Shown: positions 1 to 39,183 of the stretch, piece by piece
Numbering within the stretch: the stretch's first letter is position 1
Layout of the letters: every line of letters starts with the position of its first letter
Source: Pocillopora damicornis
Lineage: Eukaryota
Length of the DNA stretch: 64,000 nucleotides
Assembly (NCBI RefSeq): GCF_003704095.1
Contig: NW_020843886.1
Location: forward strand, 1 to 64,000
Direction: 5' to 3'
Notes under the pieces: model-generated
What the model was told of the DNA's origin: nothing
What the model saw: only the letters and a program-made list of their open reading frames with translations
Databases searched by the model: none
Made by a program: the position numbers and the translations under genes

Positions 1-754
1 GCCAAACTGCTGTCAAATGAAAACATACTGTACACAAGGTAAAGAATCAGAAGGCTGAATCCTAGGCTAAATGCTTGAGTTGTAATGCTGTCGAGTACCA
101 GGGACAGACCACGTCCATGATGGTCTTCTTGACAAAATATGGCTGAAGACACTGACTTAACCTATAAAAGAGGACTCGACATCAAAATGGTGTACATGTT
201 AGGGAAGAGATAAATGCTGTTTAGGATGTTTAGCTCTAAAAATAATCTTTATATAAATAGAAAGGATTTATTGACCCTTTGGACGACAAAGGCTGTACAT
301 ATGGTATATAAGGGCCAAGAGACAAGTCAAATCAGTGAAAGAAATAATTAAAAAATACAACATGACATGGTTATAAACCATAACTGTTTGAAGGCAGACC
401 CGTTAGCTATTTGCAAGACTCGACCCAGTACATTTAGACCAGGTTGTAAGTGTAGCCTGCCTACAACTCGGCGACGCGTCCTCCTGCTTCCACTCTTACT
501 CCAGATTTTCACCAAAAAATGCAGAAACGTAAACACTCTGCGTGGGTTGGCGGTTAAATTTTGTTCGACTGATCTAGAAGCGTTTAACATCCATAACAGG
601 TAGTACTTTTTAGTTAGTTCGAGCATCATAAGAATCATCGAGGCATCGAATTTACATAGAATTTACCATTGAGGCATCGAATTTTCTAATTTCGCTCGAA
701 ATAACGACTTACCAGTAGGCAGACAACAGCGATCGCAGAGAAAATGTTTCCCAT
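1..754 (-). CDS. TNFR-cluster receptor A, 5' part (signal peptide, CRD1-start remnant, putative TM); runs off the window edge
   Basis: Exon 1 754-713 MGNIFSAIAVVCLL|GTAAGT. Exon 2 starts at 161 after ttttatAG and reads VKSVSSAIFCQEDHHGRGLSLVLDSITTQAFSLGFSLLILYLVYSMFSFDSSL. Exon-1 size and phase, and the CQEDH motif, match receptor C (MEICQLRHYVFFCVL|VNQANAAQVCREDQH). Confidence 0.55.
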
Positions 755-1230
755 TTCAAAGTCTAAATTTTCAGTGCTAAGCGTCCCAGTGACGTGATTG
801 GGTTATACCTGTCACAAAAGCCACAAATTAATGTATAATATCAAAGGAAACTATGTCGTTTTGGTTAAGTACGCAACAGATCTTACTTGTGTCCTTCGGT
901 GTTTGGTTAAATCTAATTCCGTTTAAACTTGCTGACAAAATTTATGCCAAAGAAGAGCAAGCTTTCGAAAGTGAAAGCTATTTCCATGAATTAAAAGGTA
1001 ACAATCCTATTTTAGAAAGGGAAAACCCCGTGTTCTGACATGGGGATTCCCCGAGTCGAACCAATGAAATTGAAATCGTGGGTAAGCGAAAACCAATCAA
1101 AGGGACAAAGAGTAGGTCACGTGAATAAATTTTAGCTTACGTTTTAGTTACTGTGACCCTAAAGGCGAGATATCCTTCAGTTTCTGCTAAGCAGATTAAT
1201 GAATTGTGGTCTTGGAAAGATACTGAAGCA
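755..1230. promoter_or_regulatory. Bidirectional promoter A with NF-kB, IRF and CCAAT motifs
   Basis: GGGAAAACCCC 1019-1029, palindromic GGGGATTCCCC 1042-1052, GAAAGTGAAAG 967-977, CCAAT boxes on both strands; lies between divergent ATGs at 754 and 1231. Confidence 0.65.
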
Positions 1231-3664
1231 ATGGCCGCAGAAAATACAAACAGAGACAATATGGTAAATTCTGAGCACTGATAGCAATTGTCCCTCGCCA
1301 CTTACAATTGTAGCTTTATTTTATCCGCTGTTCTTCACTTCACTTTCGAAACAGTTATCTTATTTGCATCAATATTTTCGTTTTCCATAGCTCTCCATTT
1401 AAATATAAATAGAAGATCGTTTGCCGAAAAATTAAAACAACAATTTTCATTTCATTTTGTAGAGCGATGAAGATGGGGATCGGTCTCTAGAGGGCAGAGA
1501 TAACAACGAGGGGCTCCTTGCCATAGGGAGTGATGCACAGTATAATTCTGACAGCGACTCTGACTTGGAAGAAAATCGGACCAGGACAGCACGTAGAGAC
1601 GACCTTTCGGAACGATTAAGAGAACAAAGTGAATTTTGTTCCTGTAGTTTAGAAGGGCAACCTACTTTAACGTCCAGCAGAACTCCTGAAATGGTCTGTA
1701 GGCTATGCAGTAAAGCGATAATTCGAAACCGCACTCAGCAAGGAAAACCCAATAAATCCAACCTGAATCCAACTACAACGGAAGAAACCTTCTTAACCGT
1801 TGTTCCAGAGTCGTACAAGGGACATTTGCTGTCGCTTTCCAGTTTATCCCTTGAAGATGAGATCTGCAGCAACTCGACAACAGCATCTTTGCCAACAGTG
1901 TCTTCTGAACCTCAGCGGAAGAAAATTCCTGTACCACGTAAGTTCGATAAGTTTGAGCTCTTGTGCTCAAAGACGGTGTGTGTAAACTGTACTGCTCTTT
2001 TCTTTTCATTCGAGAAGTAACGATTTTGATTTCTCTGTTTGAGAGCTATGTTTATCGCATCATTATCCAGCCAGTCAAATTAGTCCTCGACTTAAAACCC
2101 TTTCAAACCCCGCATAATTGTACATGTCCAAATTAACGAATCTCACTCTTCCAAAATAGTCTTCAACTTAAAATCTGCCTTACTTCGTTTACAGCACTGG
2201 GCCACGTAAAACACGATAGAGGAGCTGTTCAGTGTAAAGAAACTCTCACAATCTATATCTGACCACCATTTTCATGAACGTATCTTTGGAAGGACTTATT
2301 TGCATCTACGTACGTTATTTTTATTCCATGTCCTCCGCAGATGTGTGTGACCATTCGGTGCAGCATCCATCGCCTGGTCTAACAGTGGTGCTCTTCCTTT
2401 TTGAAAGGAGCCATCAAGAAAGGAAAGAAAAGTTATTCATACTTTACATGATCCCTGAAAAAGAGCAACAGGTGAGTGTAGGAAATTGAATTCCTTCGCA
2501 ATTCAAAGTTTTCATCGTTGAATAGTAATTGACACTTGGACATCTTTTTTTTTCCTTTAAGGTATATGAGACAATTTTTCAAAGTTACAAAAATGAGGGA
2601 ACCGAGCAAGGTTACTCAACGAGACAAATTTCATTTTGTGTTAACAATGGCAAAAGCCAAGATTTTCATTCTGTATTTGTTCACGAGCAAATTAGAATTT
2701 CATTTGAAATTGAGGATCAACAGCAACAAAACTTCGTCTCTCCTGAGGATGCAAGACGCCGAGAATTTGTAAGTACATTTGAAACACAAAAATTAAATCA
2801 TTCAGTCCGGATTACACCTTTTATGATAGTTCAATGTTTCGTTATTCATCTTTTATTAGCTTTTAATCCAAACATAGTTTTCTATAGATGTCAAGTTCTT
2901 GTTGGACACTCGTGAATTTCTAGGATTAAGAGTGAACAATCACTCTTGTCAGTGAGTCTTCTGATATCAAGCAAAGGATTATATCTCTTCGCACTGTGCT
3001 TTTCGACGGTTATGAATTTCTGATTCTTTAGGTTTTTAGAGTTGCCAAAATTGAATGTGAGAGCAAAAACCGAGTAGCACCAGGAGCCAAGTCCCATTTC
3101 CGACTTCAGTATGTTGGTGAATCCGAAAATCCTTGTCAAGAACAAGGAAAAATCACCTTAGCCATCGATGCAGAGACACAGTGTTCCCTGTACTTTCCCA
3201 TCGCATTTTGGGTAAGTCTCGTTTACTTTCAGAGTAAGTGATAGCAAAAAGAGTTTTAAAGAATAGTACTTTTCTGAGCAAGCATTTGGTAATAGGAATA
3301 CTGACTGTTAGAATTGGTGGGTTTGGCAAAATAAATTTTCCCAATGAACGCCTATCGCCAACATGTACAATACATTTTTTCTATTTTTTTTTTCAAGTCG
3401 TGAGGCCACCTTGTCATCTATTAAAATATTGTTTTTCATAACCTTTGTAAACTTATTTATTTTGTGATGCAAACCTCCTTTCTCTTTATGAATTGTATTG
3501 TAATTTAAGACTTATAGCATGGTCGTGAAGGTAAATTGTGTCATGATTATCGATTGAAATACCAGCTCCAATTATGACATCTCCTAAGTCGCAATTCTAT
3601 TATCTGAGCTCACTTTAATCTTGAACATTTTTCTCAACAGAGCCCAGTGACAGCAGCTGATTAG
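1231..3664 (+). CDS. UPA-like adaptor A: acidic N-terminus, CxC...CxxC motif, C-terminal UPA-like domain
   Basis: Phase-consistent exons 1231-1263, 1463-1937, 2341-2471, 2562-2768, 3032-3211, 3641-3664 with GT-AG sites. Each exon is homologous to the corresponding exon of the paralog at 20647-24464. Confidence 0.8.
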
Positions 3665-3912
3665 AGGTGAAAATAATGGAAATACTCCTGGTATCTACCG
3701 ATTACTTTGCTGAGAACATAACTTCATGAACAATCAGTCACTGTGCCAAATTTAAGTTACACTGTACTCTACAATAGTTTACGTCATTCAATTTTTTTTC
3801 TAAACCTCACCATCTGTTTTCGAGCTAAACTTATGCTTGATGAAGGGAAAATTAAAACTTTGGTTGAGGTTAGCATTGTAACTCTTGATACTCTTGATAC
3901 TTACGAATAGAA

Positions 3913-4066
3913 GGCATGGCGCAGTGGTGAGAGCACTCGCCTCCCACCACTGTGGCCAGGATTCGATTCTAGTACCTGGTGTTGTATGTGGGTTGAGTTT
4001 GTTGTTGGTTCTCGTCCCTGCTCCGAGGGTTTTTCTCCGGGTATTCGGTCTTCCTCTCTGCTAAAT
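3913..4066 (+). mobile_element. tRNA-derived SINE
   Basis: Pol III A box TGGCGCAGTGG and B-box-like GATTCGATTC, followed by GTGGGTTGAGTTTGTTGTTGGTTCTC...TTTTTCTCCGGGTA; an (ATT)n tract follows. Confidence 0.75.
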
Positions 4067-4089
4067 CTTTATTACTATCATTGTTATAA

Positions 4090-4091
<2 letters not shown>

Positions 4092-4127
<36 letters not shown>
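4092..4127. repeat. (ATT)n microsatellite
   Basis: Directly visible; gives the spurious poly-Asn ORF 3969-4190. Confidence 0.95.
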
Positions 4128-6672
4128 GAGTAAGGGAATGATATGGTGGGGTAGTTCATTTTCTGTGGTATGAAGCAACCACAAGCTCATCTACTCATAC
4201 TAGATTGGATGTTAATCCATTAAAGGTAACCCTCACCTTTTTTTCTGGCTTTCCCGACAAATTGGTGGTACTCTTTTTTTTCTTAGAATAAGATGACCTG
4301 GCCAAAGCTTGAAAGTGTACCTCCCAACCCAAGGTTCAGCTCACTTACCGTAGGGCTACCCCATCTCACTAACCGTTTTCATGCTAATGTACAGTGTAAA
4401 TAGCCGAATTCTCCACTGTGCAGGCGCAGGCTTACATTATGCTGCCAGGATAACAAAAATGTAAAATATTTTCCTTTATAACACCTAAATGTATAAGTGT
4501 TTCTGGTAATGTTCTTGGTGTTTGATGTGTCAAGGTAGTTTTTGTTTCGAAGTTAGTGGCTGATATCTGGAAACATACATGACAAGAAATGTCTCATGAT
4601 AGCAAAATACTCCTACATTAAACATTTCATTGACAAAAATTTTACTAAGATATTGGGAACACACCTGGCAGCAGAAATTTTAATATCGAATAATGGGTGA
4701 AATGCCTTGTGAAACTTGTGAGAAAACGTTTTAATTAGATTAGAAATCTCAGATGTTCTCTTTGTTTTTGTTTTGTTTACACCATGAGATCTAGAGATGG
4801 ATTATTTACAGTGCTCAAACTGACTTTTGGCTGAAATTACTTATAAATATTTTGCAATTAGGGAACTATATATGCATTAGTTAATATTTTGTGTGCTTGT
4901 TTTATCTTGTATTTGTCATTTTATTAAAGAGAAAGATTTATGTGTCGCATTTAATGCTTAAAGTGACTAGCTTTGGTTGCCTTCTTATCACTGTATATAC
5001 CACTGGTTGGGAGAGGTCATTAAGGTGGCAGCTAGCTTTAATTGTTTTGGCTTTTTTGTTGTACTTTTCCTATCGGAAAAAGAATTCTAGACACAGTTGC
5101 CTTAATAAATTGCCTTTTTATTCTGTCCTCAGTGAAAATGATGAAATGGTGATGATGAAGGAGACAGAGATGATGATAATTGGTTGATTGAGATTGAAAG
5201 TAGACAAGAAAGCTATGCAATGAAACAGTAAAATATTTAATAGTTCCCCAGTGCTGTAGATTGAAAATGTAGGCAAAGAATAATTCATAAAATAAGAATA
5301 TTTTATTAAAAGTAAACGATATATACACCATCGTTGACTTACACAGATGTGCGAAGTGAACTGACACCAGGTGATAATCTAGTTAAAAAGACTTAAACCG
5401 CTACAAGTCTTCATCTACTTATTTCTACAGGTACATTCGGTGCATGAAAATGGCTGGCTATTAAAGCTATAATGAACGCATAAATACATACAATTTACGG
5501 AGGAATGAATACAAAAGATTGTATTCCTTTAACACCTGATAACCAAAATGTAAAGTTCAATTGAAAACCTGCTACTTTAAAAATTATCTTCAATTAGTAA
5601 AAACGACAAAAATTTGAATATGGTAACATATATATTTACACATTCTAAAACAATACAAAAAATTTTTGGTGTTCTTCACCTTAAAAAAAGATCTAAAAAT
5701 TCTAGGTAAAATAACTTGGCTGTGAGGTTTCTCCATTCTGATGGGAGATTCGAACTTCAAAACCTTCACAGCGTTTGTTTAAAGATTGGACATAAAAGAC
5801 TAAAGTAATAATTAGGCTAAGGTTTTTTCCATAGACAATATCCATAAGATAGGGCACGTTTAATACACTTGACAACATAGACACTTTAAACATGTACAAA
5901 TCTATTCAAGCCTGCATAAAAGATGCACTCTTCAATACCGCAGTGACTGTAAATGGTGCTTGACCTCCAAGATACATAACATAAACAGATCAGATCATAA
6001 ATTTATAATTTAAAAAAATAGAACTAAATTAAGAAATAAAAAAAAATTACTCTTAAAAAATAAATCTTTTAGTATAAAAATAGACCAAAAAGTATTTCCT
6101 TGATATGATGGGAAATTAAAATTTAAAAAATCGTTCCAAAAATTACTGAGTTCGTTATACAAATAGAGCTGTTTTAGCAGTGTACAGAATAGTTTCATCT
6201 CCGTCACTAGATGGACACGTTAATTCATTTCATAACTATGAACGATAATTGTTGCAGCACCAATTACCTCATATCAACAATTACACCTCAGTTAATGGAA
6301 TGAAACTTCAAACAATCGGCGTCACAATAACACAATAACAACAATGAAATTTCTCAAGTGAACAACGTTATGTAACAGTGCTTAAATCTCAGCTGAGTTT
6401 GAAACCAGGCTGAGATTTTTCCTTCAAAATGGAGGCAAATTTTGTTCTGCCTAACAGGCCACTTTGGTAAGTGGGGGCTCGTGTTAAGGGGTCCTGGGGA
6501 AGAGAATCTGAGCACTCTCACATTCTTAGCAAACATACATCTCTGTAGTATATGTTTTTACAGTCACTAAACAATCACATGCACGTTTTCAACTTAATCT
6601 CTACAAAAATCAAATAAAGTTTGTGGTCAACTATTGAGGTGAGTGATGTCAAATAAACACTATATACATATT

Positions 6673-9600
6673 TCACACATCAGTTAATTCTTTGGTGGCC
6701 TTTGCATCAAATATTGCTTTCAACCGATTAGCAACATCAGTTCTCCCAGCTTCTCTCCTCACCACATTAGCAAACTCCCAAACTGTCAGTTCTGGCCTTT
6801 CAGTTGCCAACCATTCAATCACTGCTTTTGATTTTTGATCCTGAAACCTTGCTTTTATTTTGAAGTAATTGGCACCATAAAAACGAGCAATTATCTCATA
6901 GGCCAGTTTTCCACCAATGGGTGTGTCTAAAAGTTCACAAATTGTTTCCAGTTCACTTGAGTCCAATAAGCTTCCTATTGGCTTAGAATCTGAAACACAG
7001 ATTGAACATGACAAAATATATCAGAGAATCCCTGTGTAAAGGTACTGTAATTAGACTATAACACTCAATATACTATTTAAATGATATATTCTTTTCTACT
7101 ACACACACCAAAAATTTTAAAAAAACTTTTTCCCCAAATGAATTAATTTCAATTCATGTTTGGGACAACTAAGGCCTTCAAATTACAAATGAACTTTACA
7201 GTCGGGTACTCTCACTGGAATTTTTACTTTTATAGCAGTAGCATTCAAATTCACTCAGCCCTCAATTTCTGCAAATGTCTTAAATGCATTTTTCCTGTAA
7301 AAATAATCCTCGAATTTTTACCTATTTAGTCCATTTATTTAGCATTTTTCAAACTTGTGAGAAGAGTTCAGATCCACTGTAGGCATGACAAGTATTAATA
7401 ATAATTATACCTGACTTCACCAACTGTTCTGCATTGTGGCAAGCGCTTGTACACAACTTTCCATCACCCTACGATGTAAACCACAATTGATATACATCCT
7501 AAATGGCTCATGCATAGATAATTATATCATGTATAAGCTATCAAAGTGAGTACAACTATACCCATGAAAGGTGAAACCTAAAAAAAGTATAGTTTTGAAG
7601 CAAAAATATTGCCATGCACCCTCACTAGTAGACGCTAATTACAGGCATCCAGACATCATGATAAAATAAACTGGAATTCAGAAACAAAATTAATGAATGG
7701 GTCAGACTGGCCCATTTTACAATTTGCTTGGCTCCTCTTTAACTTTATACCATTTTTTATTTTATCCCTATTGCACCATAAGGCTTGAACAACAAGAGCA
7801 TTATTTCACTTGTGTTTCTATGATACTTATAATTCCTTACTGCACCCCTGACTTACACAACCATTCTGGATAATAAAGGACTTACAGAGCCACATTTCTT
7901 TTATTGTAACTTCAGAACATTTCTGTTTCAAATGGGAGAGATTACCATATATTTTCTCTGTCCAACTGGAATAGAAAGTTAAAAATTAAAGAACTTCATG
8001 TTCACCTACAAGTGGACTGCCTGGGCACTAACTCATACATTCATTACCTCTAACAGTGGTTCACATAATTCAACTGCTGCTAATCCAGAATTATAATGAA
8101 CTTTGGTACTTTTCTTCTTATGTGTTCCCCCATCTGTTGGTAGTATGGTAAAAATTGTTGACTATACATTGAAAGTAATTCGTAATGCATTAAGGACATC
8201 CAAAAATCCCCCAAGTATAATATTAGTGATTGCTTGTAATTAGACAGCACCTAACTTTTGTTACAGAGGGCGAAATTTCTTTTCTCACAAAGTCATAATG
8301 AACATGTAAAGGAGATACTACACAACAACAGTTAATTGTGACAATTTTAGTGGATCAGATTTTGTCACATAAAAATCATACCTTAAATCTTCCCTAATAT
8401 ATTTATTTTGTCTCTGACAACTAGTACACCACATGTAAGATTCTTGACTGAGAATTACCTGGATCAACACAACTATGCATTGGTGACCGTGACTTGCAAA
8501 AGCATGTTAGGTAAATTCCACTCCCAATTACCAGAAGTAGTAGTGCCACAGTGGCTGCAATTGATATACAAGAGTTATTGCAATCCTTGTTTTTAGAAGC
8601 AAACCAACTACCAACCCCAGAATGGGTTATATTTTCTAATCTGTAACCCACATCGGCACTGGTATTAGTTAAGGCTACAGTGACTATGTGACTTGATGTA
8701 GTGGCAGCTGAACTCTGACTTGATTCAGTGGTAACCTGAGGTACAAATTTTGGGGTTGATTTAATATTGCATCTATTGACACTGCTGTGGAAAGAGCAGA
8801 TCATGCTTGATTGAGATCCCAACTTTTCTATACATTCACTCTCCACCACATCTCGATCATCATTGCAGCACTTGGAACATTTAAGACAATCTCCTTTGGA
8901 TTCATCATAATACCTGTTCAAAGGGAAGAGTAAGGAATAAAAAATTATCTTTTTTGGCTGACATATAGAGTAAAACATTAAATGTCAATGTCATCATCAT
9001 TCTTGTTATCATGTCAATGACAGAATTAAAAAAAACTAGAAGCATTGATTTTTCTAAAATTTTTGCCCAACATTTTAAATAAATGGCAATCTAGTAATGG
9101 ACAACCAACTAAGTGGCTCCACTTGCCCACCATTTACAGGTCAATTGGAATTTGAAATGTTGGTTTTTGCAGAGGGAGGAAAACTTAAGGACCCAGAGAA
9201 AAACCTGATGACTGGAGAAAACTCCACTGCACCACCCCTGTGCCATTCCTGCAAGGAAACATTAAATGCCTGAACAATGACAATTAATTTCTATCAGGCT
9301 AGTTTCACTAAAATTTCCTATACCAATAGGCAAATGCCAGGTATTTAAATGTAAATCAAAGCCAAACTAGGAAAATTCTGCAGTTAATCAGATTTTAAGT
9401 TGGAATTATAGTAATTCCAAGCACCCTTTGACACCCTCCCTCCCTTTCACCCCATGGCCACTTCAAGTACAGCTGTTACATGATGTACCTGTCTTTGCTG
9501 TAACATCTCTTTCCACATTCAATGTCTGCTTGACGTGAGCAGTTTTTCATCACCACCTGGTCCTTGGAGCAAGATGAACAAGGAATGCAGACAGATATGC

Positions 9601-9793
9601 TAAATTCATTGGAAAATGACTTTCCCAGTTGGCATGGAACACAGAACACTGTTGCATCAGGTGTTAATGGTTTTGAATTTCCACATTCTGGTGAGATAGT
9701 CTGGCCTGGAGGGCAAGCCTGACAGTCTATACACTGTGGTGGACCATCTGCATTTTCAACCCAGTGTTGGCTTTTCTTGCAAGGATTTGTAGG
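6673..9793 (-). CDS. TNFR-superfamily receptor B: EDAR/TROY-like CRDs, TM, C-terminal death domain
   Basis: Exons 9793-9489 (CKKSQH..CIDCQACPPG..ECG..CVPCQLGKSFS..CIPCSSC..NCS..DIECG), 8913-8459 (YYDESKGDCLKCSKCC, S/T-rich stalk, TM ISIAATVALLLLVIGSGIYLTCFC), 8133-8048, 7468-7411 and 6989-6673 (death domain ICELLDTP..YEIIARFYG..SKAVIEWL..LTVWEF..GRTDVANRL). All phases are compatible; the first exon is uncertain because of the gap at 9832-9930. Confidence 0.88.
9140..9240 (-). mobile_element. Degenerate SINE fragment in an intron of receptor B
   Basis: Reverse-complement similarity to the 3913-4066 SINE (GAGGAAAAC..CCAGAGAAAAACC..CACTGCACCACCCCTG). Confidence 0.55.
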
Positions 9794-10059
9794 CTAAAAG
9801 GTAAATGTTACCTGAACTTCAATTCAGATTTNNNNNNNNNNNNNNNNNNNNNNNNNNNNNNNNNNNNNNNNNNNNNNNNNNNNNNNNNNNNNNNNNNNNN
9901 NNNNNNNNNNNNNNNNNNNNNNNNNNNNNNNACACCGCCGCAAATTTCAACCCAAGCCAATTTTTGCCGAGTGGACTTCAGTTACCCTAATATTCAGAAA
10001 CGCCAATTCGTTATTACACTCTTTGCTCTGAATTTCGCCTGGCGGCGTTAGTGTCTTGT

Positions 10060-10578
10060 ATGATTTTCGTTTCATTTCTCATGTAGAAGGATCGAGGCTG
10101 CTAACATTTTGCAAGGGCTGTCTCAACTTATGCCCTGTCTCAACACACATCAGGTGTGAAATTTTCCTTGGGCACCGTTAGCAGTTGAACAGGAACGGTT
10201 TCATTTTCATTTTGAACGCCGCGCAGAATAATAACGACCTACGCGTTTTCTTTAAATTTAAAGGTACGTGAAGGAATCACAAGAATTCTTGAAGGCAAAG
10301 TGCTGCGTTTGCGGTTGGGAAAATCCCGCCAATATTTTATCGGTTTCTCAGTCACAAGAATATCATGTGATGACAATCACCCTTCAATGAACTGATCGCA
10401 TTTCATTTGATTGGTTGCAGGCGCACGTGAATGAAATCGATGACGTAACGTTTGTAAACAAAACAGCTAGCGTATTTTTAAAGAACCTACGACGAAAGTC
10501 CACCGTCTTTCCTGTTGAAAGTCTACGTATTCACATCGCCGTGAATTTGCGAATTCAGCGGAAGATCTTTTTACAGAA
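10060..10578. promoter_or_regulatory. Bidirectional promoter B with NF-kB, IRF, CCAAT and CRE motifs
   Basis: GGGAAAATCCC 10317-10327, TTTTCGTTTCA near 10064-10074, ATTGG near 10410, TGACGTAA 10441-10448. Confidence 0.55.
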
Positions 10579-12348
10579 ATGCTAAATGGATGTTTCTCAA
10601 GCAAGGCCTTGGAATATCCATTTTTAGCCGTCGCTTCCGTCGAGATTTCGAACTCTCTGAAGAATCATGACGCAATACGAGAAAATGGTACAATTTGTCA
10701 TTTCGTTTGCTTGTTTGTGACGATTTCTCTCGCTTTTGGATTTAGCATGCAAACTTTTGAGCTTAACGCAATATTTTCTTTCCAAACGTCTTCTCCCCGA
10801 TACAGGTGGTTAGCGTTGAGAAGAGATACGTCACAAGACACCGACCGCAACGATCCCTCGAAGAAAGCAATCATTGGTCTTTTTATCGAAAGGTGAGCGA
10901 CTTTTTTTAACTCTTCGGTTCTTAAAGGTCTGATATAGCTGATCTAAACGTTATCTCCTCCATGTTTTGACCGTTTTAAGTCTGCGTAATATTGCATGCC
11001 TTACTTACGTAGGCGTGTCGGAGGCGTATGACGCCATATAAGCGAATGTGCTGTCATAAGCATATTCCTGTCAACAAAAGATTACTCTTCTTCATATGAG
11101 GTTTTACATGATGTAGAGAATGTTTCAAGCGAATGATGTTACGATGAAATAAGCCTAGGCTTTGAAACTACGCATTCGTGTTTCAGAAGAGATTGAAAAT
11201 TTAAAGCAGGTAAGGAAATTGTTTAGGACATAAGTTAATTTTTGACCCATTGTGCTAAAAAGTGCACAGTCATTTAAAGCAAGAATTCGAATTTGACATA
11301 TTCTTAAATTTGCATTTAATTTTGAGTACAACCTACACAATCTTTTCTTGATTTTTAATGGTGTTGTTTAGATTATAGTTAAGGATAGTGGGTCCACAGC
11401 TGTTTATAGTTGCCTATTTTATCAATTTACAAATAATTGTATGTTTGGAGATAAAATGACACAGGGAATATGGTTCATTTTGTACCACAGAGCTGTTAAT
11501 TATTGGACTTACTTCACTAGTTTAAATTCTGGTTACTTTTAATTTTTGCTCTCAAGCTGCATGATATTCTGTATCAGTATAATAAGTTCAATTTCAGTTA
11601 TCAATTGTTCCATCAATATCACTAATAAGTGTTCCTGGTATGCATCATTGTATTGCATCATCTGCATTTAAAGTATTGTTCACAAAGTTAAAGGAATGCC
11701 TTGAAGCATAATTATTGCATCATCTTTACTGTCACTTAAATTGTCTGACATCGCCTTTTTAAGTTAATTCACCTTGAAATGTGTAAACAAAAGATTATTT
11801 TGTTTTATCCAAGGTTTGCATGGTATTGAAAATGCCTGAAGTAAATGTTACATTATAATAAGTCTAGGCTTTGAAATTTCACAGTCATGTTTAAGAAGAG
11901 ATTGGACATTAAAATTAATTTTACTAAAAAGTGCACTGTCATTTGAAGCAACAATTCTAATTTTAGGTATTATGAAATTTACATATGATTTTAAGAAAAA
12001 TCTACTCAATTTTGTTTAATTTCTATTAGTTTTATCTAGATTATAGTTAGGGTTATAATTATAGTTAAGTAGTATTCACAGAGTTGAAGAATGCCTTGAA
12101 CCATAATGCATCATTCTTTCTGTCACTTAAATTGTCTGACATTTTTTGTTGTTGTTCCATCTTGAAATGTGTAAATAGTTAATTTTCTTTAAGTTTATGC
12201 AAAGAAAGTGTTCTATTATTTTGAGTGTTAATAAAGTTAGTNNNNNNNNNNNNNNNNNNNNNNNNNNNNNNNNNNNNNNNNNNNNNNNNNNNNNNNNNNN
12301 NNNNNNNNNNNNNNNNNNNNNNNNNNNNNNNNNNNNNNNNNATTTTAG

Positions 12349-14053
12349 GGGAGTTGAAGTCGAACCATGAATGTCTGTCGTGCTTCATAGCAATATTCAA
12401 GCGAGGAGTTCTCTCTGGAAAAAATCGAAGCCATGTCGTCTATGTTATTCCGAGGGAAAAATTCGATTTGGTAAGATACCGAGCGTCTAGTTAGAAAAAA
12501 TTCAAGGTCTCCTCAAAACCTAAACGAAAAAGGTAACCCTTTTAACCCCCAAGATCTGATTGTCATGTCTCCCTTAGAGCTGCTATACATTTCCTTTCGA
12601 ATTAGTTCGGATAATTTGGTGTTAATTCAAGACAACAACTTCCACATCATACGTTTGAGTATTCTCGTAACCTTTTTGCTGGATGATGTACGGATATTAC
12701 GTGGAAAAGTTACATGTTAATCACTTCTGAGAGTTAAAGGAGTAACGTGAGGTACATTGCTTACTAAATCCAAACTCGCACAGTTGCTTCTCGACACCAC
12801 GACGCCTACAATAGAGTACACTTAATTACATAAATGGAAAATTAATAATACTGGTCAATAGAACCTCACAAGAGTTATCAGATCACAATTAAATATTGGG
12901 TTGAGAACTTGAAAAAAAATTTGATAACGAAAACATAAATTGACACCAACCTTTTGGTGGTTAATGCATTTCATATATGACAACACGTCTTTCGATTTCT
13001 CAGGTGTACGACAAAATCGCTCAAAATGAAGCAGCTGCTTATGAAGGAACTGAGATCGCTGTGATAGATGAGAAAGGATCCTTGTTCGCCTATCATCCTC
13101 AAATGGCAATCCAAAGTGAGGTAAAAATCATCTCTGAAATGGATTGTGGCGAATGTTTTGCCTTGGTCAGTCCTGCGGTAGGTAACACTTTTTCTCCTAA
13201 AAAAATTTTCGGTCTGAGTTATAATATTGCATTCTAATTTACTTTCTAGCATAAATTTGTTTGAATACTCTAGTTAGCAGTAAGTGCTTAACTCCGCATA
13301 GAGAGATGCAGGTTTATCCAGGGCCAGGGGTTGACAACCACAATACATTTAATAGTGGCTTACCCACTGTAATTAACCTGCTCAGTGTTGGGTTTGACTC
13401 TACCATAGAACCTACGGTTTACAACTCTTCTGAAAATAGGTCAGCTGGGCACCCTGTTTGCATTCTGCAATCCGTAAGTGCAAGTTTGGCTGAAAAATCT
13501 GTGAATCGATTCTTTTTTAATAGTCAACCACCATTGGCGTCCAACATCTACTTGCAAAAAGTGAGGAGAGGTTATTTCCTGGCGCTTGTGTCAAGCTGGT
13601 CACCACATATGTTGGAGAGCAAAACACTCTTCGTGAAGACAAAGTCAGGATGGCACTGCTTAGTGGAAAAGCGAGACTGGTCATTCTCATTCCTACCAAG
13701 GTATGGCTTTAGTACTAGTGATGTCTTAATAATAAAACTTCTGTGTTCGTATTGATTGAATCTCCCAAAAAAAAAAATGAAAATTTTTTTCTTCCTCAGT
13801 ACTGAAAACATTCATATAATTTCCTCTCTTCATTCTCAACCTCATTATTAAAAATTGCGAGTGCACTTACCATTCCAATTTGGCTTTACATAACAATATT
13901 TTATTTAATTGCTATTAACAACTGGTTATCAATTAATCAATTAATTGCTTTTATTCATGATCTTCTAATTAGTGTTTTCAGAGTTCCCTACTGACAGCAG
14001 TCTTGCGACTGGAGGCGTTACCTCTTAAGATAGTCAGTTGTTTCAAGTTGTAA
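12349..14053 (+). CDS. UPA-like adaptor B (3' exons; 5' exons probably near 10,600-10,900 and in the gap)
   Basis: Exons 12349-12470 (LSCFIAIFKRGVLSGKNRSHVVYVIPREK), 13004-13177 (VYDKIAQNE..EGTE..LVSPA), 13524-13700 (KSEERLFPGA..YVGE..LIP) and 13982-14053. Phases and motifs match adaptor A exons 3-6. Confidence 0.75.
12534..12746. mobile_element. Short MITE-like element with (T)AACCCTTTAAC...GTTAAAGGGTTAA-type ends (piggyBac-like termini)
   Basis: Inverted termini. Related copies occur near 28310-28510, 28911-29115, 51121-51320, 52082-52285, 52350-52546 and 54750-54940. Confidence 0.6.
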
Positions 14054-14858
14054 ATAACAAAAGAAACCAACATAAAGAACCCAATGATTTTCAGTCGGCA
14101 AAACGTTTTTTAGAATCTTAGAGAGAGCTTCTCTTCCTACAACACGTTGAAGTGCTAACTGCTGCTAGTAGTTGGATTATGACAATCCACGAGAGGTACT
14201 TCCTGGTTAACAATCATATGATTTTAACCTCCCACAATCGCGTGTAAAACCCAGAAAGCACTAATCAATAAAGGTAACTTTCTGTATTCTTAGGTTCATC
14301 ATACGCCAACCGATGGCCTTGAGAATCAAAACTATTCAGGTACAAAACTTAAAATTTAATTCACAAGTCCAGTTGGAATTTTTGTGATACAAGATTACCC
14401 TATGGAGCTTTACCTAGGTCTTAATTACAAGTCAAGTAAGGTTCTGGTGTTTTGACTTGCCAAATATCAAGCACTCAGGTCAGGGAACAGAATAGCTCAA
14501 TTGTTATGTNNNNNNNNNNNNNNNNNNNNNNNNNNNNNNNNNNNNNNNNNNNNNNNNNNNNNNNNNNNNNNNNNNNNNNNNNNNNNNNNNNNNNNNNNNN
14601 NNNNNNNNNNNNNNNNNNNNNNNNNNNNNNNNNNNNNNNNNNNNNNNNNNNNNNNNNNNNNNNNNNNNNNNNNNNNNNNNNNNNNNNNNNNNNNNNNNNN
14701 NNNNNNNNNNNNNNNNNNNNNNNNNNNNNNNNNNNNNNNNNNNNNNNNNNNNNNNNNNNNNNNNNAGAAAGAAAGAAAAATAGATGGCAGGATAGTTGTG
14801 TTTATTTAAAAGAAATTGTTCACTGATCCTTTTCATTTCCCATTTCAAAGTTACGGGT

Positions 14859-15167
14859 ATGCCAAAACTGGACCGAGACGCCCTTCAAAGCTGTCACGTA
14901 GATCTTATTGCCAATATTGGGGACTTTACATCGTTATGTGCCTATCTTTATCAATACAATATCTTGACGGCCGATGATAAGGCATTTCTGCGAAGTTTTC
15001 CACGTCCATCAGATGGCATCGATCACTTGCTAATGATGATACCCAGAAAAGGGAATATTTTAGACATTTTCATACGTATCTTGCAGCAATCACGAGAAAA
15101 TCAAGAAGCTGCCAAACGTTTAGTGTTGAAACGTCTACAGTTACACAGAAAGACAGAGAGTAAATGA
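14859..15167 (+). CDS. CARD-domain protein or exon (RAIDD/caspase-2-type CARD motif), 102 aa
   Basis: MPKLDRDALQSCHVDLIANI..LCAYLYQYNILTADDKAFL..DGIDHLLMMIPRKGNILDIFIRILQQS shows the six-helix CARD pattern with LL..IPRKG..F..L. A splice acceptor lies at 14850. Confidence 0.8.
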   Translation: MPKLDRDALQSCHVDLIANIGDFTSLCAYLYQYNILTADDKAFLRSFPRPSDGIDHLLMMIPRKGNILDIFIRILQQSRENQEAAKRLVLKRLQLHRKTESK

Positions 15168-15687
15168 CTTAATGTGTGATTGAATACATTTTAAAAATTG
15201 GTTGTTCACTACTCGACACAATGTTTCATTACAACTAGTTTTTCACAGGAAACAACACTCTGTCGTTATACACATTAATAACCAAGCAAGAACTCCTGCT
15301 TTGTACACATTGCTTAAACTTTATTAGCTTAAGATGTACAACCTCTGATATCCTCTATTCAGGACTTCAAACGCCTTATCCTGAACACTTTTTAAGATAA
15401 ACTACTACTAACGAAGTAATATGAATTAAAATACCTGGCAAAGAGTTTCATCTAGGGGTGAGAGAATTTCAGATGTTAAGATCCCTTAACGTACCAAATT
15501 ATCTGTGAACTTTTTACTTACCTTTTTGAAAATTTTTGTGAAATATGTCAGCGAGATTCGATCTCTATCTTAGTTTTTTGTCTGACTCAATCGATTAAAT
15601 TAAAACAAAAGGAAATATACACAGTATAATGCCTCTAGTCTATGGACGCTGAAGTTCACTCAATGGAACCTCATCTCTGATGATTAT

Positions 15688-15796
15688 CAGGTTGAGTTCA
15701 GGTTGAGTTCAGGTTGAGTTCAGGTTGAGTTCAGGTTGAGTTCAGGTTGAGTTCAGGTTGAGTTCAGGTTGAGTTCAGGTTGAGTTCAGGTTGAGT
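15688..15796. repeat. 11-bp minisatellite (CAGGTTGAGTT) x about 10
   Basis: Directly visible; overlaps the candidate stop codon of receptor C. Confidence 0.95.
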
Positions 15797-18700
15797 ATAA
15801 AGCTGGCAACTGAATGATGCAGTCAGAAATTTCTTTCTCTTTTCCCTTTCCACTCTTTACAACAGTGATATCTGCGATACTTGTGACTTGGTTTCCTTAT
15901 GAAGGAAGAAAGTAATAGTTGTGATTACTGGGAAGAAAACATCAGTTCCCCTACAGGAACAAAGTTCCTTGCATTTTCAAGTAGTTTTTTACTTCAAAAG
16001 AATAATAACTGACAACTTTACGACTCAATCCAGCTATACTGACCTTCATCCATTTGAAGGCTACTAAAACCTAACACCTCTCAGTAAGTGTAAACAACTC
16101 ACCATTCATGGCATTTGCAATCGAGCTCTGATTCATACACCAGCTTGGATCCTACAATGAAACAAATGGAAAATTAGAACTCTTTCAGTTGTCATATCTC
16201 TCAATCCAAAAAAATCAGAAAAACCCTGTGTTGGCAGTAACTGTACTGCTGGTAAACTCTCATTGGTGTTGTGGATTAAATTTCACAACTTTCATTGACC
16301 CATTCATATCTTCAAATTATTAGTTTCTGGTTCTAAACACAAATATGACCCCAAGCAAGAAGAAGACTAACTATAGGTGATCAAATCCTCATTAAAATAG
16401 ACTACAACAGAGGCCATTGTGTCTCCTGCAGATTAATTCAGTGAAATTTAAAATAAATTTATATTTTGTGCTATAAAATGTGCTACGTAAAATGTACCTC
16501 CTTAATAGCAGTGCTTGCATACATCAAAGTTTGATTGGATGCCTGAGTCAAAATAATAGTAGCAAAGAAGCTGCTTTTCTTTTTAGATGCTGAGCTAAAT
16601 ACCAGATTGCATCTCGGAGTTGTACTGAAAGAGTTCTTCAGTGATGCATAGCTGATTTTCTAAAAAAAAAAGAGAACAAAATGCAAATGTCTTCAAAATC
16701 ATCAAGAGATAGCAAAACTTTTAGGGATCTGAAAAGAAAGTTAATTATCAAGTTCACAATTTTAAGATCTTCAGTGAAGCTTGAAAGTTTCCATTTTTCT
16801 CAGAATCTTGCTCTGTTGTTGCACGACACTCAAACAATGACTGCAAAATACCATTTGGTGACCACTCTTTAGCTTCCAGCCATCAATATCCTTCACACCA
16901 ATTTCTACATCCTCTTCATGAATTACAGAAAAATCAAGAGATTCAACTGATGACATGGGCTTTCCTCCTTCCTTTTTCTCCTCCCTCATAACATTCTGTG
17001 GAGCAAAGGTCACACAATTTTGTTAAAATTCATTACTTACAGAAATAGATCTAACAAAATTATATAACATAAGTAACCATGATTGGAAGTTGGGATTCTT
17101 TATGAACTAGACTGGCACAATTTAAAAATCAAATTACATATACTTGTAAATACCTTAAGAATCCTAGTTAAGACTTCAATTATGTACAAAAACAGATTGC
17201 CACAGCTGGGTAAGATGTCACAAGGTTTGAAACACCTGTCCTCTTACTGAACAATTGAAAAAAAATTTATATATGAAAGAGATCTTTTGGTCTCTTCGAT
17301 GCTGAAACGCAGGGAGAAATTCAATGCCCTTACTATTGTCAATTCAGTCCTATCTAAGGAGAAAATCTGTTTTTTATCCTCAAAAGCTTACCTCAAATGA
17401 CCACTCGCAGTCATCAAAGCAGTACAATCTCACAACAAGGTCTTCTCCAACTCTGGTGTCATTACAAAATGCCATGACCTTCATTCTCTTGAATACTGGT
17501 AAAGATTGCTCTTCACAGTGTCCAACCACTGCAAATGTTGCAAAATAATGTGTTTTAAAGCTAACATGGTTGTTTTTGGGGAGGAATTCTTTTATTCCAC
17601 ATGACTTACTACCCTTCACATAACTTACTACCCATTCATCATTTTTCAACTCCTTCAAAATGATTTTCCACTTATTTGGAGAAAGCACCATGTTTGCACC
17701 ATGAGGTATCTGAAGCTCAAGGGGTTCCAGCAACTGGTTCTTTGAAATAAAAATAAATGCTGGACTTAGTGGAAATTCATCATCCTCAAGAAATCCAGGT
17801 AAATCCAGCCCTTCTGGTGTGGCATGCAGTACCAAATCACGTGGCAAGTGTTGAAGAGTAGACCTGTTGTTATCAAGAGAAACAACCTCAACTCCTGTCT
17901 TTTCAAATACCATATGACCTGGGCTATGTTGTTTTGGACACTCCAACTCTGCCTCCTTACTACCTACGAAATAAAATATGCATATGCAAAAATACGCATA
18001 AAATTTGTATATCGTAAACACAAGGTAGCTTTTTCAGAAAAACAGTATGGGAAGACTCCATTTTCTAGTCCTTTCTACAAAACAAATAAAAAATAGAAAA
18101 CAAAAACAAATAAACAAACAAAAAGTGAAAAGAAGTGAGGTACTCTGTTTTTGTTTAAAACGCTAGGTGTAGTACTCTATACACAAGAGTTTTAAGCCTA
18201 TAGGCACTGAAAACATAAAGCAATGAATACCAATTAGAGATAATAAATGAATGCTTAACTTACCTGCAAGTGAAGAAGTTTTTCTAATTTCAGCACAGTC
18301 CTTCTTTTCCATTAGCTCACAATTGTTTTCTTCATTTGGAAATGGATACTGATAGTTGCCCTCCGATAATGGTACTGAAATGGCAACCCAAATCAGAAAG
18401 AAACATATGCTCAATACAATCAATGTTGTCACCTTGTCAAGTTCGATTGAGTTCACTTTATAGTTTTCTTGTTCTACAGTTTGCAGCTGCCCAAACTGTT
18501 CATTTAAGCCCAAAGATGGAATACGAGGCTTAATAGCGAGCCCCTGAGAGTTCTCTGAAGACGCCATTCCTTCCTTTATACAGTTCACGATACTTTGACT
18601 GTCGCTAAAACCACAACACCAGAAGCACTGTTCACAAGCTTTTGAGTGGTCGTTCAGATAAAACCCTGGCATGCACTCACCACAAATGGTATTTGATTTG

Positions 18701-20225
18701 GTGGAACAGTTGGCTAAAACCTTCTGACCAATCGAACAAATTTTGCAAGACTGTAGAACACCCTGCTGATCGACGAAGGTTTCTCCTAAGATCGGAAGTT
18801 CACACTTAGGTATCGCACCATCAGTTACAACACTTCCACATGGTTTGGTGAGGCCAAATTCGTCTGAACAAACAGGACAGGGTAAACAGATCTGTTTGCC
18901 ATCATGCTTTACAATTGTGATCTCATCATACCAACACTTTGCTAAACAGGGTTTTCTCTTGTGGTAGCTGCACGATTGTGTTCGAGGCATCCCTTGCATG
19001 AGACATTGTGGGACAACTACGTCCAAATCACCCAAACAACATCCTGAGCAAGGGAGACATTTGGACAAAGTTTGGTTCTGGTAATACCCATCTGGGCATG
19101 GCTTGCAACTACATTGAGTGTTTGAGATTTTAGTGCATCGCTTTATAGTTACTTCATCTGGACTACAGGTTGAACAGGGTTTACAACTCTCAGACGAGTA
19201 GGAATCAGAGTAGTAGTCCGAGGCACACTCCTCACACTCAACTTGGGTGCCGATGGTCCTCCTAGTTCCGCAAGGGATTGTAACCTCAGATCCTGGGGGG
19301 CATTTGATGCAATCTGTACAAGCGATATTACCATCTGGTAGTTCTACTGCATGTTGGTCTTCTCTGCAAACCTGAGCTGCATTGGCTTGATTGACCTATT
19401 GAGGAACACAAATTGGATCAAACAAAGGTTTCTCTAAGCTTAAATTTCATTTGATGTAACTTTTTTGTTTTTTGATATTCGCATTGCAGTTTCTTTTCGC
19501 TTGGAAGCATGTTAACAACATGAGTAACTATTGCATCCGTAGCCTGCAGAGCAGGCGTCTCACTAGTGTGAGCTAATGTTGTAAGCTCGCGATCGTTTAT
19601 CCGACCGGTTGTGTTTGACTTGGAGTTAGAGTTTCACTCCCCCACCCCCACCCCTCTCCGTATTTTTGACCGTCGACCGCCCCCTTAGTACAAATTTATT
19701 TCTCTCCCCAGCCTTCCGCTGCCATCAAAGATGGCGGCCATAATTTTCGTTAAGAAATTACTGAGCACTCTCTCGCCAAAATTACGCCTGATCTGCAGGC
19801 TATTACATCAGTGAAACACACCAAAGAATACGGTCATGAAAAGTTCATAGCCTCCAGTGCAGGTGTAATTTTGGCGAGTGAGTGCTCATCCGGATAGACG
19901 ATATATGTAACGTTAACTCGCCCGCACTAAAAGTACACATGGCTAGTGCATCTTGAAAACTTCAGCCTCAGTCTTAACCGAATTGGTACCGATCAAATTT
20001 GACGTCCTCTTGCCATTCAAGGCAACTTCTTTTTCTTTTGGGCCCCTCACACCTAAAATAAGCACGATAAACAATACATAACTAACCCATCTTAACTGTC
20101 TGTTTAGATCAAGAGGTTTTCACTTCCGCTGAACATCTCACCGTTGCAAGACATGAAATGATACAAGACAATAACCTTACCAAGACGCAGAAGAAAACAT
20201 AGTGCCTAAGTTGACAAATTTCCAT
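15786..20225 (-). CDS. TNFR-superfamily receptor C: signal peptide, two tandem EDAR-like CRD modules, TM, cytoplasmic ZU5 + UPA, no death domain
   Basis: Exons 20225-20181, 19395-18264 (open frame checked), 17963-17392 (ZU5: TGVEVV..PLSPAF..PLELQIPHGA..W; UPA start KRMKVMAF..LVVRLYCFDDCEWSFE), 16995-16852 (NVMREEKKEGGK), 16659-16498 and 16151-16081. An alternative terminal exon is possible at 15895-15786. Confidence 0.88.
19540..19802. mobile_element. MITE with TAGCCTGCAGA..CAGGCGT terminal inverted repeats in intron 1 of receptor C
   Basis: Left TAGCCTGCAGAGCAGGCGT, right ACGCCTGATCTGCAGGCTA; flanks TTGCATCCG and TTACATCAG resemble a degenerate TSD. Confidence 0.7.
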
Positions 20226-20646
20226 TTCTTTGACCTCAACGGCTACCTTGATTTTACAAATGCAGAAAATCAGTTGATTAGAAGAGACGCTGTTGACCCT
20301 CTACCAGTAACAAATATATCGACCAAAACCTACAAAAGTGGATATTTGTTTAAACGCCACTGGATGAATATGTTTCGACTGATTGCTAGGTCTCCCTTAT
20401 AAGATGGAAGGAGTTGAACCACTGAAAATTTGTTCTTCTTTGAGGAAGTCAGAATTTTGATTATACTATCCTTTCGTTTTCGAGGGGGTTTCCCCGACCT
20501 TTGTTTCATTCAGCCAATAAGGGAAAGGAAACGACACTTAGCCAATGAAAGGGGGCTTATATAAATAATACAAATTAAGCCTGCTTTCAGTTCCCCTTTT
20601 TCTAGGAACTGACTAGTTGAAGCAAGAAAAAACGAAAGTGCTGAAA
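20226..20646. promoter_or_regulatory. Bidirectional promoter C with NF-kB, IRF, CCAAT and TATA motifs
   Basis: CTTTCGTTTTC 20471-20481 lies next to GGGGTTTCCCC 20485-20495; two CCAAT boxes (near 20514 and 20542); TATATAAA near 20558. Confidence 0.65.
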
Positions 20647-38531: not shown

Positions 38532-39183
38532 NNNNNNNNNNNNNNNNNNNNNNNNNNNNNNNNNNNNNNNNNNNNNNNNNNNNNNNNNNNNNNNNNNNNN
38601 NNNNNNNNNNNNNNNNNNNNNNNNNNNNNNNGGCTCACCAGCACAAGAAATGGATGCCTACGTTTTTTCTTTCCGATAAAACGCCAGTGTTACGCCGCAA
38701 AATGTAACAATTGTCGCAAAATGTAATCTTTTTAAATACTTTTTGGTACATTGACATGAAAAAACTACCTTTTTTTAGTTTCTGTGTGGTACATATAAAA
38801 TATATTATGAAAGTAATGGAGAATTACCGCGACGCTTGGCGGCACGGTAAATATCCACCGCTATTCATCTCCACTTCAGTGAATAATTGTTGCATAGTAT
38901 TTGGCCAGGTTGTTTAAATGACAATTTGCAGGTACTCACTTAACGTCCTGCGATTACAATTTAATTTGGGTACCAGTAAGATTGTTTCTTCCTTAGCCGG
39001 AAATAAATCAGGTGACAATCAAGGGCTAGACCCTAGTCCTGAAGTCACCACCTTTCAATGGAGTATTGTTATTCAATTGAAACTTTCAAATTTCTGACTG
39101 TCGTGCCAGCTTATTTTCAGATTTCTATGATAACATAGAGTAATTTTTTGAAAATTTTCTATTTGTTTTATCCCCTAATATAG

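What the first reader, a model, noticed from the sequence alone, without database searches (positions are those of the whole stretch)
967..20495. NF-kB plus IRF motif module kept in all three visible bidirectional promoters
Seen: A has GAAAGTGAAAG (967), GGGAAAACCCC (1019) and GGGGATTCCCC (1042). B has GGGAAAATCCC (10317) and TTTTCGTTTCA. C has CTTTCGTTTTC (20471) next to GGGGTTTCCCC (20485). The promoters otherwise do not align by eye, and such GC-rich 11-mers are rare in this AT-rich DNA. Established knowledge: cnidarian NF-kB is p50/p52-like and prefers 11-12-bp G-rich sites, and GAAANNGAAA is the IRF element. Inference: both genes of each pair are co-induced in a feedback loop, possibly antiviral.
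Basis: partly seen in the sequence, partly recalled or inferred. Interest (0 to 1): 0.7.

Follow-up and report, generated by a model that had tools for sequence, protein, structure and literature searches.

The report
Coral TNFR–UPA pairs share NF-kB promoters
In a reef coral, three pairs of genes (a TNF-receptor-family gene and an unstudied adaptor-like gene) sit back to back around short shared promoters that carry NF-kB and IRF binding motifs far more often than chance, so each pair is likely switched on together during immune or stress signalling.

Summary
All listed motifs are at the stated places. The kB 11-mers are not chance: 4 sites, all in the three promoters, against about one match per 200 kb genome-wide. 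Each promoter also has a canonical IRF element within 120 bp of kB (3 of 3, against 3 of 60 unselected kB sites). Each promoter separates a TNF-receptor-family gene from a partner with a predicted UPA domain, stand-alone in A and C and UPA-CARD in B. RNA confirms divergent splicing for A and B and indicates that B is assembled inverted. kB sites also precede unpaired TNFR genes (9 of 31 against 3 of 120), so kB marks the receptor family, while kB plus IRF marks these pairs. A paralogous pair on another contig lacks both motifs. Binding, co-induction and orthologue conservation are untested; 'antiviral' and 'feedback' are unsupported. Verdict: real, a new variant of known inducible bidirectional promoters.

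The parts
1..754 (-). Gene A-left: TNFR-C-like gene lacking cysteine-rich repeats (signal-peptide-like exon 713-754, then a short ectodomain and a hydrophobic stretch in 1-161; runs off the contig)
   Evidence: RNA joint 159-711 CT..AC in 3 of 3 RNA runs; open frame and likeness to TNFR-C exons 1-2 by eye
967..977 (+). Promoter A IRF element GAAAGTGAAAG (inside CTTTCGAAAGTGAAAG, 962-977)
   Evidence: the same 16-mer lies upstream of a TNFR on C2200; the same 11-mer lies 174 bp upstream of an IRF gene's DNA-binding exon
1019..1029 (+). Promoter A kB site 1, GGGAAAACCCC
1042..1052 (+). Promoter A kB site 2, GGGGATTCCCC
1231..3664 (+). Partner A: acidic N-terminal part plus stand-alone UPA-family domain
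   Evidence: RNA joints 2469-2560, 2768-3032, 3210-3640; UPA-family profile hits; relative P0006
6673..9793 (-). TNFR-B body: cysteine-rich exons, transmembrane stretch, death-domain-like last exon
   Evidence: Pfam TNFR_c6 E 4e-10; four RNA joints; hhalign 95% to a Pfam-confirmed death domain, no direct Pfam hit
9932..10106 (-).
   Evidence: RNA contigs of two studies cover 9932-10106 and stop at 10106 while DNA goes on; the link to partner B is inferred, not bridged
10107..10530 (.). RNA-free core of bidirectional promoter B
   Evidence: zero RNA depth 10135-10449 in 2 of 2 RNA runs, DNA cover in 2 of 2 other runs; a weak hint by the tool's own note
10198..10208 (-).
10317..10327 (+). Promoter B kB site GGGAAAATCCC
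   Evidence: a 12-bp form stands at a similar distance from the paralogous exon on C4113, at 6373
10579..10892 (+). 5' exons 1-2 of TNFR-B (assembled inverted), with a conserved 38-codon upstream ORF that overlaps the receptor start at 10667
   Evidence: RNA joint 10686-10805 and overlapping loose ends at 10894 and 9795; same exon order on one strand in the C4113 paralog
12349..15167 (+). Partner B: UPA-family domain followed by a CARD (5' exons not visible)
   Evidence: open 278-codon frame, all AG/GT; RNA joints to 14292; UPA exon E 2e-9; Pfam CARD 27.8 bits, cut-off 23.9; the splice into the CARD exon is predicted only
16074..20225 (-). TNFR-C: signal exon 20181-20225, long cysteine-rich exon, transmembrane stretch, ZU5-UPA tail; no death domain found
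20471..20481 (-). Promoter C IRF element GAAAACGAAAG
20485..20495 (-). Promoter C kB site GGGGAAACCCC, 3 bp from the IRF element
20647..24464 (+). Partner C: 327-aa protein, disordered N-half plus stand-alone UPA fold
   Evidence: P0001 maps to six exons; model pLDDT mostly 70-94 over 161-320; UNC5B UPA Z 11.7, CARD8/NLRP1 UPA Z 9.3
35761..40073 (.). Fourth pair D (TNFR-D minus, partner D plus), tandem copy of pair C; promoter not visible
   Evidence: duplication 14937-33633 / 33648-49615; exon hits

Best explanation
Three short bidirectional promoters each separate a TNF-receptor-family gene from a gene for a predicted UPA-domain protein and each carry a kB 11-mer with an IRF element within 120 bp, so NF-kB, likely helped by an IRF, probably turns on receptor and partner together. 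Shown: the motifs, their rarity, the head-to-head layout, splicing in both directions for A and B, and the domains. Inferred: the single coral NF-kB binds the kB sites after immune or stress signalling; an IRF binds the neighbouring element and adds a second input; both 5' ends, a few hundred bases apart, respond; the UPA partner then tunes signalling of its receptor (receptors C and D carry their own ZU5-UPA tail; partner B adds a CARD). The kB input is shared with much of the TNFR family, and the kB plus IRF combination is what sets these pairs apart.
For: kB: 5 strand matches against 0.3 expected; 3 of 757 background windows, 1 of 167 CpG-rich ones. kB with IRF element within 120 bp: 3 of 3 promoters against 3 of 60 (strict) or 8 of 60 (loose) unselected kB sites, Fisher p 5e-4 and 4e-3; in dinucleotide shuffles the loose pair arose in 66 of 152,444, 24 of 198,576 and 149 of 188,383. 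The promoters do not align and receptors B and C are distant paralogs, so the motifs are not leftovers of a recent copy. Out-of-window test: strict kB within 3 kb upstream of 9 of 31 TNFR exons, downstream of 2 of 32, in 3 of 120 background windows. Positive controls: one RHD locus and four IRF genes; two kB sites 2.9-3.0 kb upstream of the RHD exon, IRF elements 143 and 174 bp upstream in 2 of 4 IRF genes, kB 11-mers upstream in the other 2. Negative controls: both FDXACB1-like/NAXD-like promoters lack the motifs. All 5 UPA-family genes found lie divergent to a TNFR-family gene. Nematostella NF-kB binds like p50/p52 (PMC3630861, passages) and shifts a probe containing GGGAAACCCCC, which also stands at 20484-20494 minus (10.1101/2022.06.09.495518, passages).
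Against: No binding, induction or co-expression data. No orthologous promoter from another coral could be fetched. The paralogous pair on C4113 (receptor 10668-16369, partner 7932-9096) has neither motif, though its partner has an in-frame stop; a second paralogous promoter (C4113:6373) has kB but no IRF element within 7 kb. IRF elements alone are not enriched upstream of TNFR exons (12 of 31 against 29 of 120, p 0.12), and TCGAAANNGAAAS is no commoner than its control genome-wide (682 against 838). The strict patterns were fixed after seeing the window's sites. Background loci came from four large contigs only. Nematostella IRF knockdowns showed no effect (PMC8713801).
Confidence: 0.6

Rival explanations
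1. The kB sites serve the TNFR genes only, as in the rest of the family; the UPA partners are long-linked neighbours that are expressed independently or only passively.
For: kB precedes 9 of 31 other TNFR exons, most with no UPA partner; the kB label is scattered over the receptor tree (10 changes, shuffled mean 10.0).
Against: All 5 UPA-family genes stay head-to-head with a receptor across distant receptor subfamilies; the sites lie between 5' ends under 500 bp apart; the pair that lost kB has a partner with an in-frame stop.
Confidence: 0.2
2. NF-kB drives both genes, but the GAAANNGAAA elements are chance matches or sites for another factor, so there is no IRF input.
For: GAAANNGAAA is common (84 of 757 windows); no family-wide enrichment; only 2 of 18 kB sites in other TNFR regions have an element within 150 bp; IRF knockdowns were silent in Nematostella.
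Against: 3 of 3 against 3 of 60 proximity; the same elements stand right upstream of 2 of 4 IRF genes; a TNFR on C2200 has an overlapping IRF-kB composite at 56715-56735.
Confidence: 0.14
3. The GC-rich palindromes are bound by another factor or are non-functional promoter composition, and the promoters are ordinary constitutive CCAAT-box bidirectional promoters.
For: All three promoters have CCAAT boxes and A and B have a CACGTG box; the C4113:6373 site overlaps an E2F-like TTTCCCGC (motif label recalled); spliced transcripts are present in runs not chosen for stimulation.
Against: Shuffles that keep composition give a strict kB site in 0.07-0.4% of cases; the housekeeping-type head-to-head promoters lack it; the sites fit the tested cnidarian NF-kB preference.
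Confidence: 0.06

Closest known systems
Mammalian inducible bidirectional promoters: DTX3L/PARP9 (PMC4070648, passages) and TAP1/PSMB9 (recalled, no call)
   Same: Two immune genes head-to-head on one short promoter with cytokine-responsive elements; TAP1/PSMB9 is recalled to use a kB site and an IRF element.
   Different: Here the genes are a TNFR-family receptor and a UPA-domain protein, the unit is repeated 4 times in the window, the animal has no known interferon, and inducibility is untested.
Cnidarian NF-kB and IRF target promoters (Nematostella TRAF3, 10.1101/2022.06.09.495518; poly(I:C)-induced promoters, PMC8476169; Pocillopora promoter scan, 10.1101/640177; passages)
   Same: Same p50/p52-type 11-mers; IRF, NF-kB, STAT and ETS motifs are enriched upstream of poly(I:C)-induced anemone genes.
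   Different: The passages read do not treat TNFR genes or bidirectional pairs; supplements were not read and may list these genes.
NLRP1/CARD8 C-terminal UPA-CARD fragment and UNC5/ankyrin ZU5-UPA-death-domain modules (PMC11258412, passages; folds)
   Same: Partner C has the UPA fold; partner B reads as UPA followed by CARD; receptors C and D have a ZU5-UPA tail like UNC5B.
   Different: The partners are separate genes with no ZU5 in the visible exons, so they are not released by self-cleavage as far as can be seen; identity to the solved UPA domains is 6-12%.

Membership tests
NF-kB (p50/p52-type) binding site | Symmetric GGG-N5-CCC 11-mer with A/T-rich core | tested here: met
   4 of 4 sites; consensus recalled, in line with PMC3630861 passages
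NF-kB (p50/p52-type) binding site | Above background and placed at gene 5' ends | tested here: met
NF-kB (p50/p52-type) binding site | Conserved in orthologous promoters | tested here: inconclusive
   no orthologous DNA found; none of the 5 listed variants in 10106-10479 falls in B's sites, too few to tell; kept in 1 of 2 paralogous B-type promoters
NF-kB (p50/p52-type) binding site | Bound by NF-kB and needed for induction | not testable with these tools
   needs EMSA, ChIP or reporter
IRF element / ISRE | Two GAAA half-sites with a 2-nt spacer (967, 10198, 20471) | tested here: met
   consensus recalled
   1-nt spacer; lies in RNA-covered sequence
IRF element / ISRE | Enrichment beyond chance | tested here: inconclusive
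   enriched next to kB in these promoters, not upstream of TNFR exons in general nor genome-wide
IRF element / ISRE | Bound by an IRF | not testable with these tools
   four IRF genes exist; binding untested
Bidirectional promoter | Divergent 5' ends within 1 kb, both genes spliced | tested here: met
   A and B by RNA contigs; C by gene models and spliced database proteins only
Bidirectional promoter | Shared elements control both directions | not testable with these tools
   contigs give no level or induction
TNF receptor superfamily | Cysteine-rich TNFR repeats (genes B, C, D) | tested here: met
   Pfam TNFR_c6 over the cut-off for B and C, below it (E 2e-4) for the cut exon of D
TNF receptor superfamily | Cysteine-rich TNFR repeats (gene A-left) | tested here: not met
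   signal exon is spliced to a short ectodomain and hydrophobic stretch with no repeat; a derived relative, not a full member
FIIND proteins (NLRP1, CARD8) | UPA fold | tested here: met
   partner C model: UNC5B Z 11.7, rmsd 2.6, 135 aligned; CARD8 Z 9.3; A, B, D by profile
FIIND proteins (NLRP1, CARD8) | ZU5 before UPA with a self-cleavage site (partner C) | tested here: not met
   the N-half of P0001 is unfolded in the model and has no Pfam hit
FIIND proteins (NLRP1, CARD8) | ZU5 before UPA-CARD (partner B) | tested here: inconclusive
   the 5' exons are not visible in the window

The most novel reading that the evidence does not exclude
Stony corals keep a two-gene signalling cassette: a TNF-family receptor and a free UPA or UPA-CARD adaptor (the part that NLRP1 and CARD8 release by self-cleavage) are wired to one NF-kB/IRF switch, so induction supplies receptor and adaptor together; in pair B a conserved upstream peptide overlapping the receptor start adds a translational gate.
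Probability: 0.2. Interest if true: 0.78.

Novelty: new variant of a known kind. Interest (0 to 1): 0.5.

Why it matters
Direct NF-kB and IRF targets in corals are mostly unknown, and IRF function in cnidarians is unproven. These 400-500-bp promoters, with two outputs each and rare, mutable sites, are small test objects for whether kB-IRF cooperation predates interferon. They also point to an uncharacterised coral family of UPA and UPA-CARD proteins (relatives in Pocillopora, Stylophora and Montipora, all unnamed) that may couple the expanded TNF receptors to cell death, a pathway tied to heat stress in corals (10.1101/2024.07.27.603686, passages).

Tried and rejected
Orthologous promoters: a metagenome scan with the upstream-peptide alignment gave 207 pattern matches and no confirmed relative; the sequencing runs found were near-identical holders. 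Homology search with 13306-13701 found nothing; most of that frame proved to be intron or off-frame. Pfam and PDB sequence searches of partner C were empty; the Atlas gave no usable hit for the Stylophora relative. A weak partner hit on C3168 lies in a PARP cluster and was rejected. Rfam found nothing in 1-25000. The ZU5 exon folded poorly (pLDDT 48). Complex prediction of receptor-C ZU5 with partner-C UPA gave no verdict (0.19, mark 0.34), which is no evidence either way. Rejected: the plus-strand exons at 10579-10892 as the start of the partner gene (RNA links them to the receptor); GAAATGGAAA at 20219 as an IRF site (it overlaps the receptor start codon); the motifs as repeat remnants (of 22 windows of 600 bp around kB sites only 4 pairs of recent duplicates align, none with the window's). 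Literature searches for a description of these pairs (listings and abstracts' starts only) showed none; the library lacks most subscription papers.
Full report
Setting. The window is the first 64 kb of contig C521 of a 234-Mb genome. Proteins at 90% identity or more to partner C are labelled Pocillopora damicornis, and relatives are labelled P. meandrina, Stylophora pistillata and Montipora foliosa.

Observation. The strict form GGGRAWWYCCC has 562 + 547 strand matches genome-wide against 331 + 354 for the backwards control. The window has 5 strand matches where 0.3 are expected (Poisson p 1.6e-5). In 40 background stretches (392,753 bases from four large contigs, spaced by hand, not random) 3 of 757 windows of 500 bp had the strict form, 7 the loose form, 31 GAAANNGAAAS and 84 GAAANNGAAA; among 167 CpG-rich windows the counts were 1, 4, 4 and 12. 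So kB is rare and the IRF element alone is common. The strict patterns were set after seeing the sites; the loose ones are consensus forms recalled from memory.

kB next to IRF. The nearest GAAANNGAAAS lies 52 and 75 bp (A), 119 bp (B) and 14 bp (C) from the kB starts. Of the first 60 other strict kB sites listed, 3 have this element within 120 bp and 8 have the loose form (Fisher p 5e-4 and 4e-3). In dinucleotide shuffles the loose pair arose in 66 of 152,444 (A), 24 of 198,576 (B) and 149 of 188,383 (C). Against this, the extended form TCGAAANNGAAAS shared by A and C is not enriched genome-wide (682 against 838), and 2 of 30 such sites had a strict or 12-bp kB within 250 bp.

Are they bidirectional promoters? 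For A, RNA contigs show a minus-strand intron (159-711) in 3 of 3 RNA runs and plus-strand introns at 2469-2560, 2768-3032 and 3210-3640; the minus transcript reaches at least 891. For B, RNA contigs of two studies cover 9932-10106 and stop there, RNA starts again at 10531 or 10580, and 10135-10449 has no RNA while DNA runs cover it. Contigs show no strand, start site or level.

B is assembled inverted. The plus-strand exons 10579-10687 and 10806-10892 are spliced in RNA. The RNA that leaves 10894 and the RNA that enters the receptor exon at 9795 overlap in reverse complement (8 letters visible; lengths of 52 and 28 letters fit a 30-letter contig overlap). The closest paralog of receptor B (C4113:13515; 98/94 support) has the same two exons upstream on its own strand. 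The piece 9932-12241 therefore likely points the other way in the genome. B stays head-to-head, with the sides swapped. No DNA contig bridged the joins.

The genes. Receptors B, C and D have TNFR cysteine-rich repeats. B ends in a death-domain-like exon. C and D have a ZU5-UPA tail like UNC5B and no death domain was found behind it. Gene A-left resembles receptor C at both ends of its ectodomain but lacks the repeats. Partner C folds with confidence over about 161-320 and matches UPA domains: UNC5B (Foldseek E 7e-4; Z 11.7, rmsd 2.6, 135 aligned), CARD8 and NLRP1 (Z 9.3), ankyrin-B. A profile of the family finds A, B, C, D and one gene on C4113; genome searches with three single proteins found no further credible member, which is a lower bound. 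Partner B reads as UPA then CARD in an open frame with AG/GT ends; the last splice is not RNA-confirmed and spans an N stretch. All 5 family genes lie divergent to a TNFR-family gene, B after undoing the inversion. C and D come from a tandem duplication of about 19 kb; promoter D is not visible.

Beyond the window. Of 33 TNFR exon hits outside the window, 2 were dropped upstream and 1 downstream for having under 2.5 kb. Strict kB lies within 3 kb upstream in 9 of 31, downstream in 2 of 32 and in 3 of 120 background windows (p 3e-5; 7 of 29 after removing two shared or duplicate cases, p 4e-4). IRF elements: 12 of 31 against 29 of 120 (p 0.12). Of 18 kB sites in these regions 2 have an IRF element within 150 bp. 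On a tree of 34 receptor exons (the C4113:155935 hit and receptor D were left out) the kB label needs 10 changes, the same as shuffled labels. So kB is a loose family-wide trait, gained or lost often, and kB plus IRF is typical of the window's pairs. The fifth pair (C4113) has neither motif and its partner has an in-frame stop; a second B-type promoter there keeps a 12-bp kB site without an IRF element. Among visible UPA-TNFR promoters the module is thus in 3 of 4.

Controls. The two FDXACB1-like/NAXD-like head-to-head promoters have neither motif (the NAXD label is recalled from the sequence, FDX-ACB and BMT5 domains are). The genome has one RHD locus and four IRF genes. Upstream of the RHD exon lie two kB sites at 2.9-3.0 kb; two IRF genes have an IRF element at 143 and 174 bp, one identical to A's; the other two have kB 11-mers at 195 and 1,228 bp.

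Literature (passages only; no supplements opened, and those of bioRxiv preprints are closed, so target lists there may include these genes). Nematostella has one NF-kB whose binding correlates 0.95 with p52, 0.88 with p50 and 0.65 with RelA (PMC3630861); a sponge study agrees (10.1101/691097). It binds and activates through such sites in the TRAF3 promoter (10.1101/2022.06.09.495518). IRF and NF-kB motifs are enriched upstream of poly(I:C)-induced genes (PMC8476169), and genes labelled EDAR and IRF2 rise with poly(I:C) in Nematostella and Stylophora (PMC13319465). But NF-kB knockdown hit antibacterial, not antiviral, genes and IRF knockdowns were silent (PMC8713801). kB scans of Pocillopora promoters exist (10.1101/640177). 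Head-to-head inducible pairs are known in mammals (PMC4070648). Passages of PMC8195603, PMC11251625, PMC11258412 and 10.1101/2024.07.27.603686 did not describe these pairs, nor did the listings of ten searches. Earlier notes of this scan report similar motif grammar at other coral immune genes; they are leads, not support.

Mechanism and verdict. Most likely (0.6) NF-kB, with an IRF as second input, induces receptor and UPA partner together from one short promoter, and the partner modulates or relays the receptor's signal. The layout, motifs and domains are shown; binding, co-induction, feedback and partner function are inferred. The main rival (0.2) is that kB serves the receptor alone. The promoter logic is of a known kind; the repeated TNFR-UPA(-CARD) pairing and the conserved upstream peptide in receptor B were not found in print. 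Interest 0.5.

Noticed in passing
window 10579-10813 (+); L001:6682-6789; L002:668-775: A 38-codon upstream ORF overlaps the TNFR-B start in another frame. It has 3 copies in the genome with the stop at the same place; over its last 16 codons the copies differ by 8:1, 9:2 and 5:1 silent to replacing codons. A likely conserved-peptide uORF; one literature search showed nothing on it.
   Followed up: partly
window 9932-12241: Piece between two 100-N runs is probably assembled inverted; annotation of TNFR-B and partner B from this assembly would be wrong at their 5' ends.
   Followed up: partly
window 12349-15167 (+): UPA followed by CARD, the layout of the NLRP1/CARD8 active fragment, as a gene of its own in a coral.
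   Followed up: partly
window 1-754 (-): Spliced TNFR-C relative without cysteine-rich repeats; could be a ligand-blind or decoy form. Its 3' part is off the contig.
   Followed up: partly
window 16074-20225 and 35761-38529 (-); L001:19-4580 (+): TNF receptors with an UNC5-like ZU5-UPA tail; the C4113 copy ends in a death domain, the two window copies seem not to.
   Followed up: partly
window 14937-33633 and 33648-49615: Tandem duplication of about 19 kb whose junction cuts the CARD exon and the NAXD-like gene; the first FDXACB1-like copy looks broken into several frames.
   Followed up: no
G000 C2200:56672-56735; C2200:33432-33447; C4113:115756; C2200:35120: An overlapping IRF-kB composite upstream of a C2200 TNFR, the same 16-mer as promoter A upstream of its paralog, and kB sites lying between head-to-head TNFR-TNFR pairs.
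   Followed up: partly
window 15687-15796: Perfect tandem array of an 11-bp unit, about 10 copies, at the 3' end of TNFR-C.
   Followed up: no
window 60494-61564 (+): Protocadherin-like long exon with three cadherin domains.
   Followed up: no
G000 C3168:199000-223000 (L109-L112): Cluster of PARP12-like genes, seen while checking a spurious hit (label from the look of the frames).
   Followed up: no
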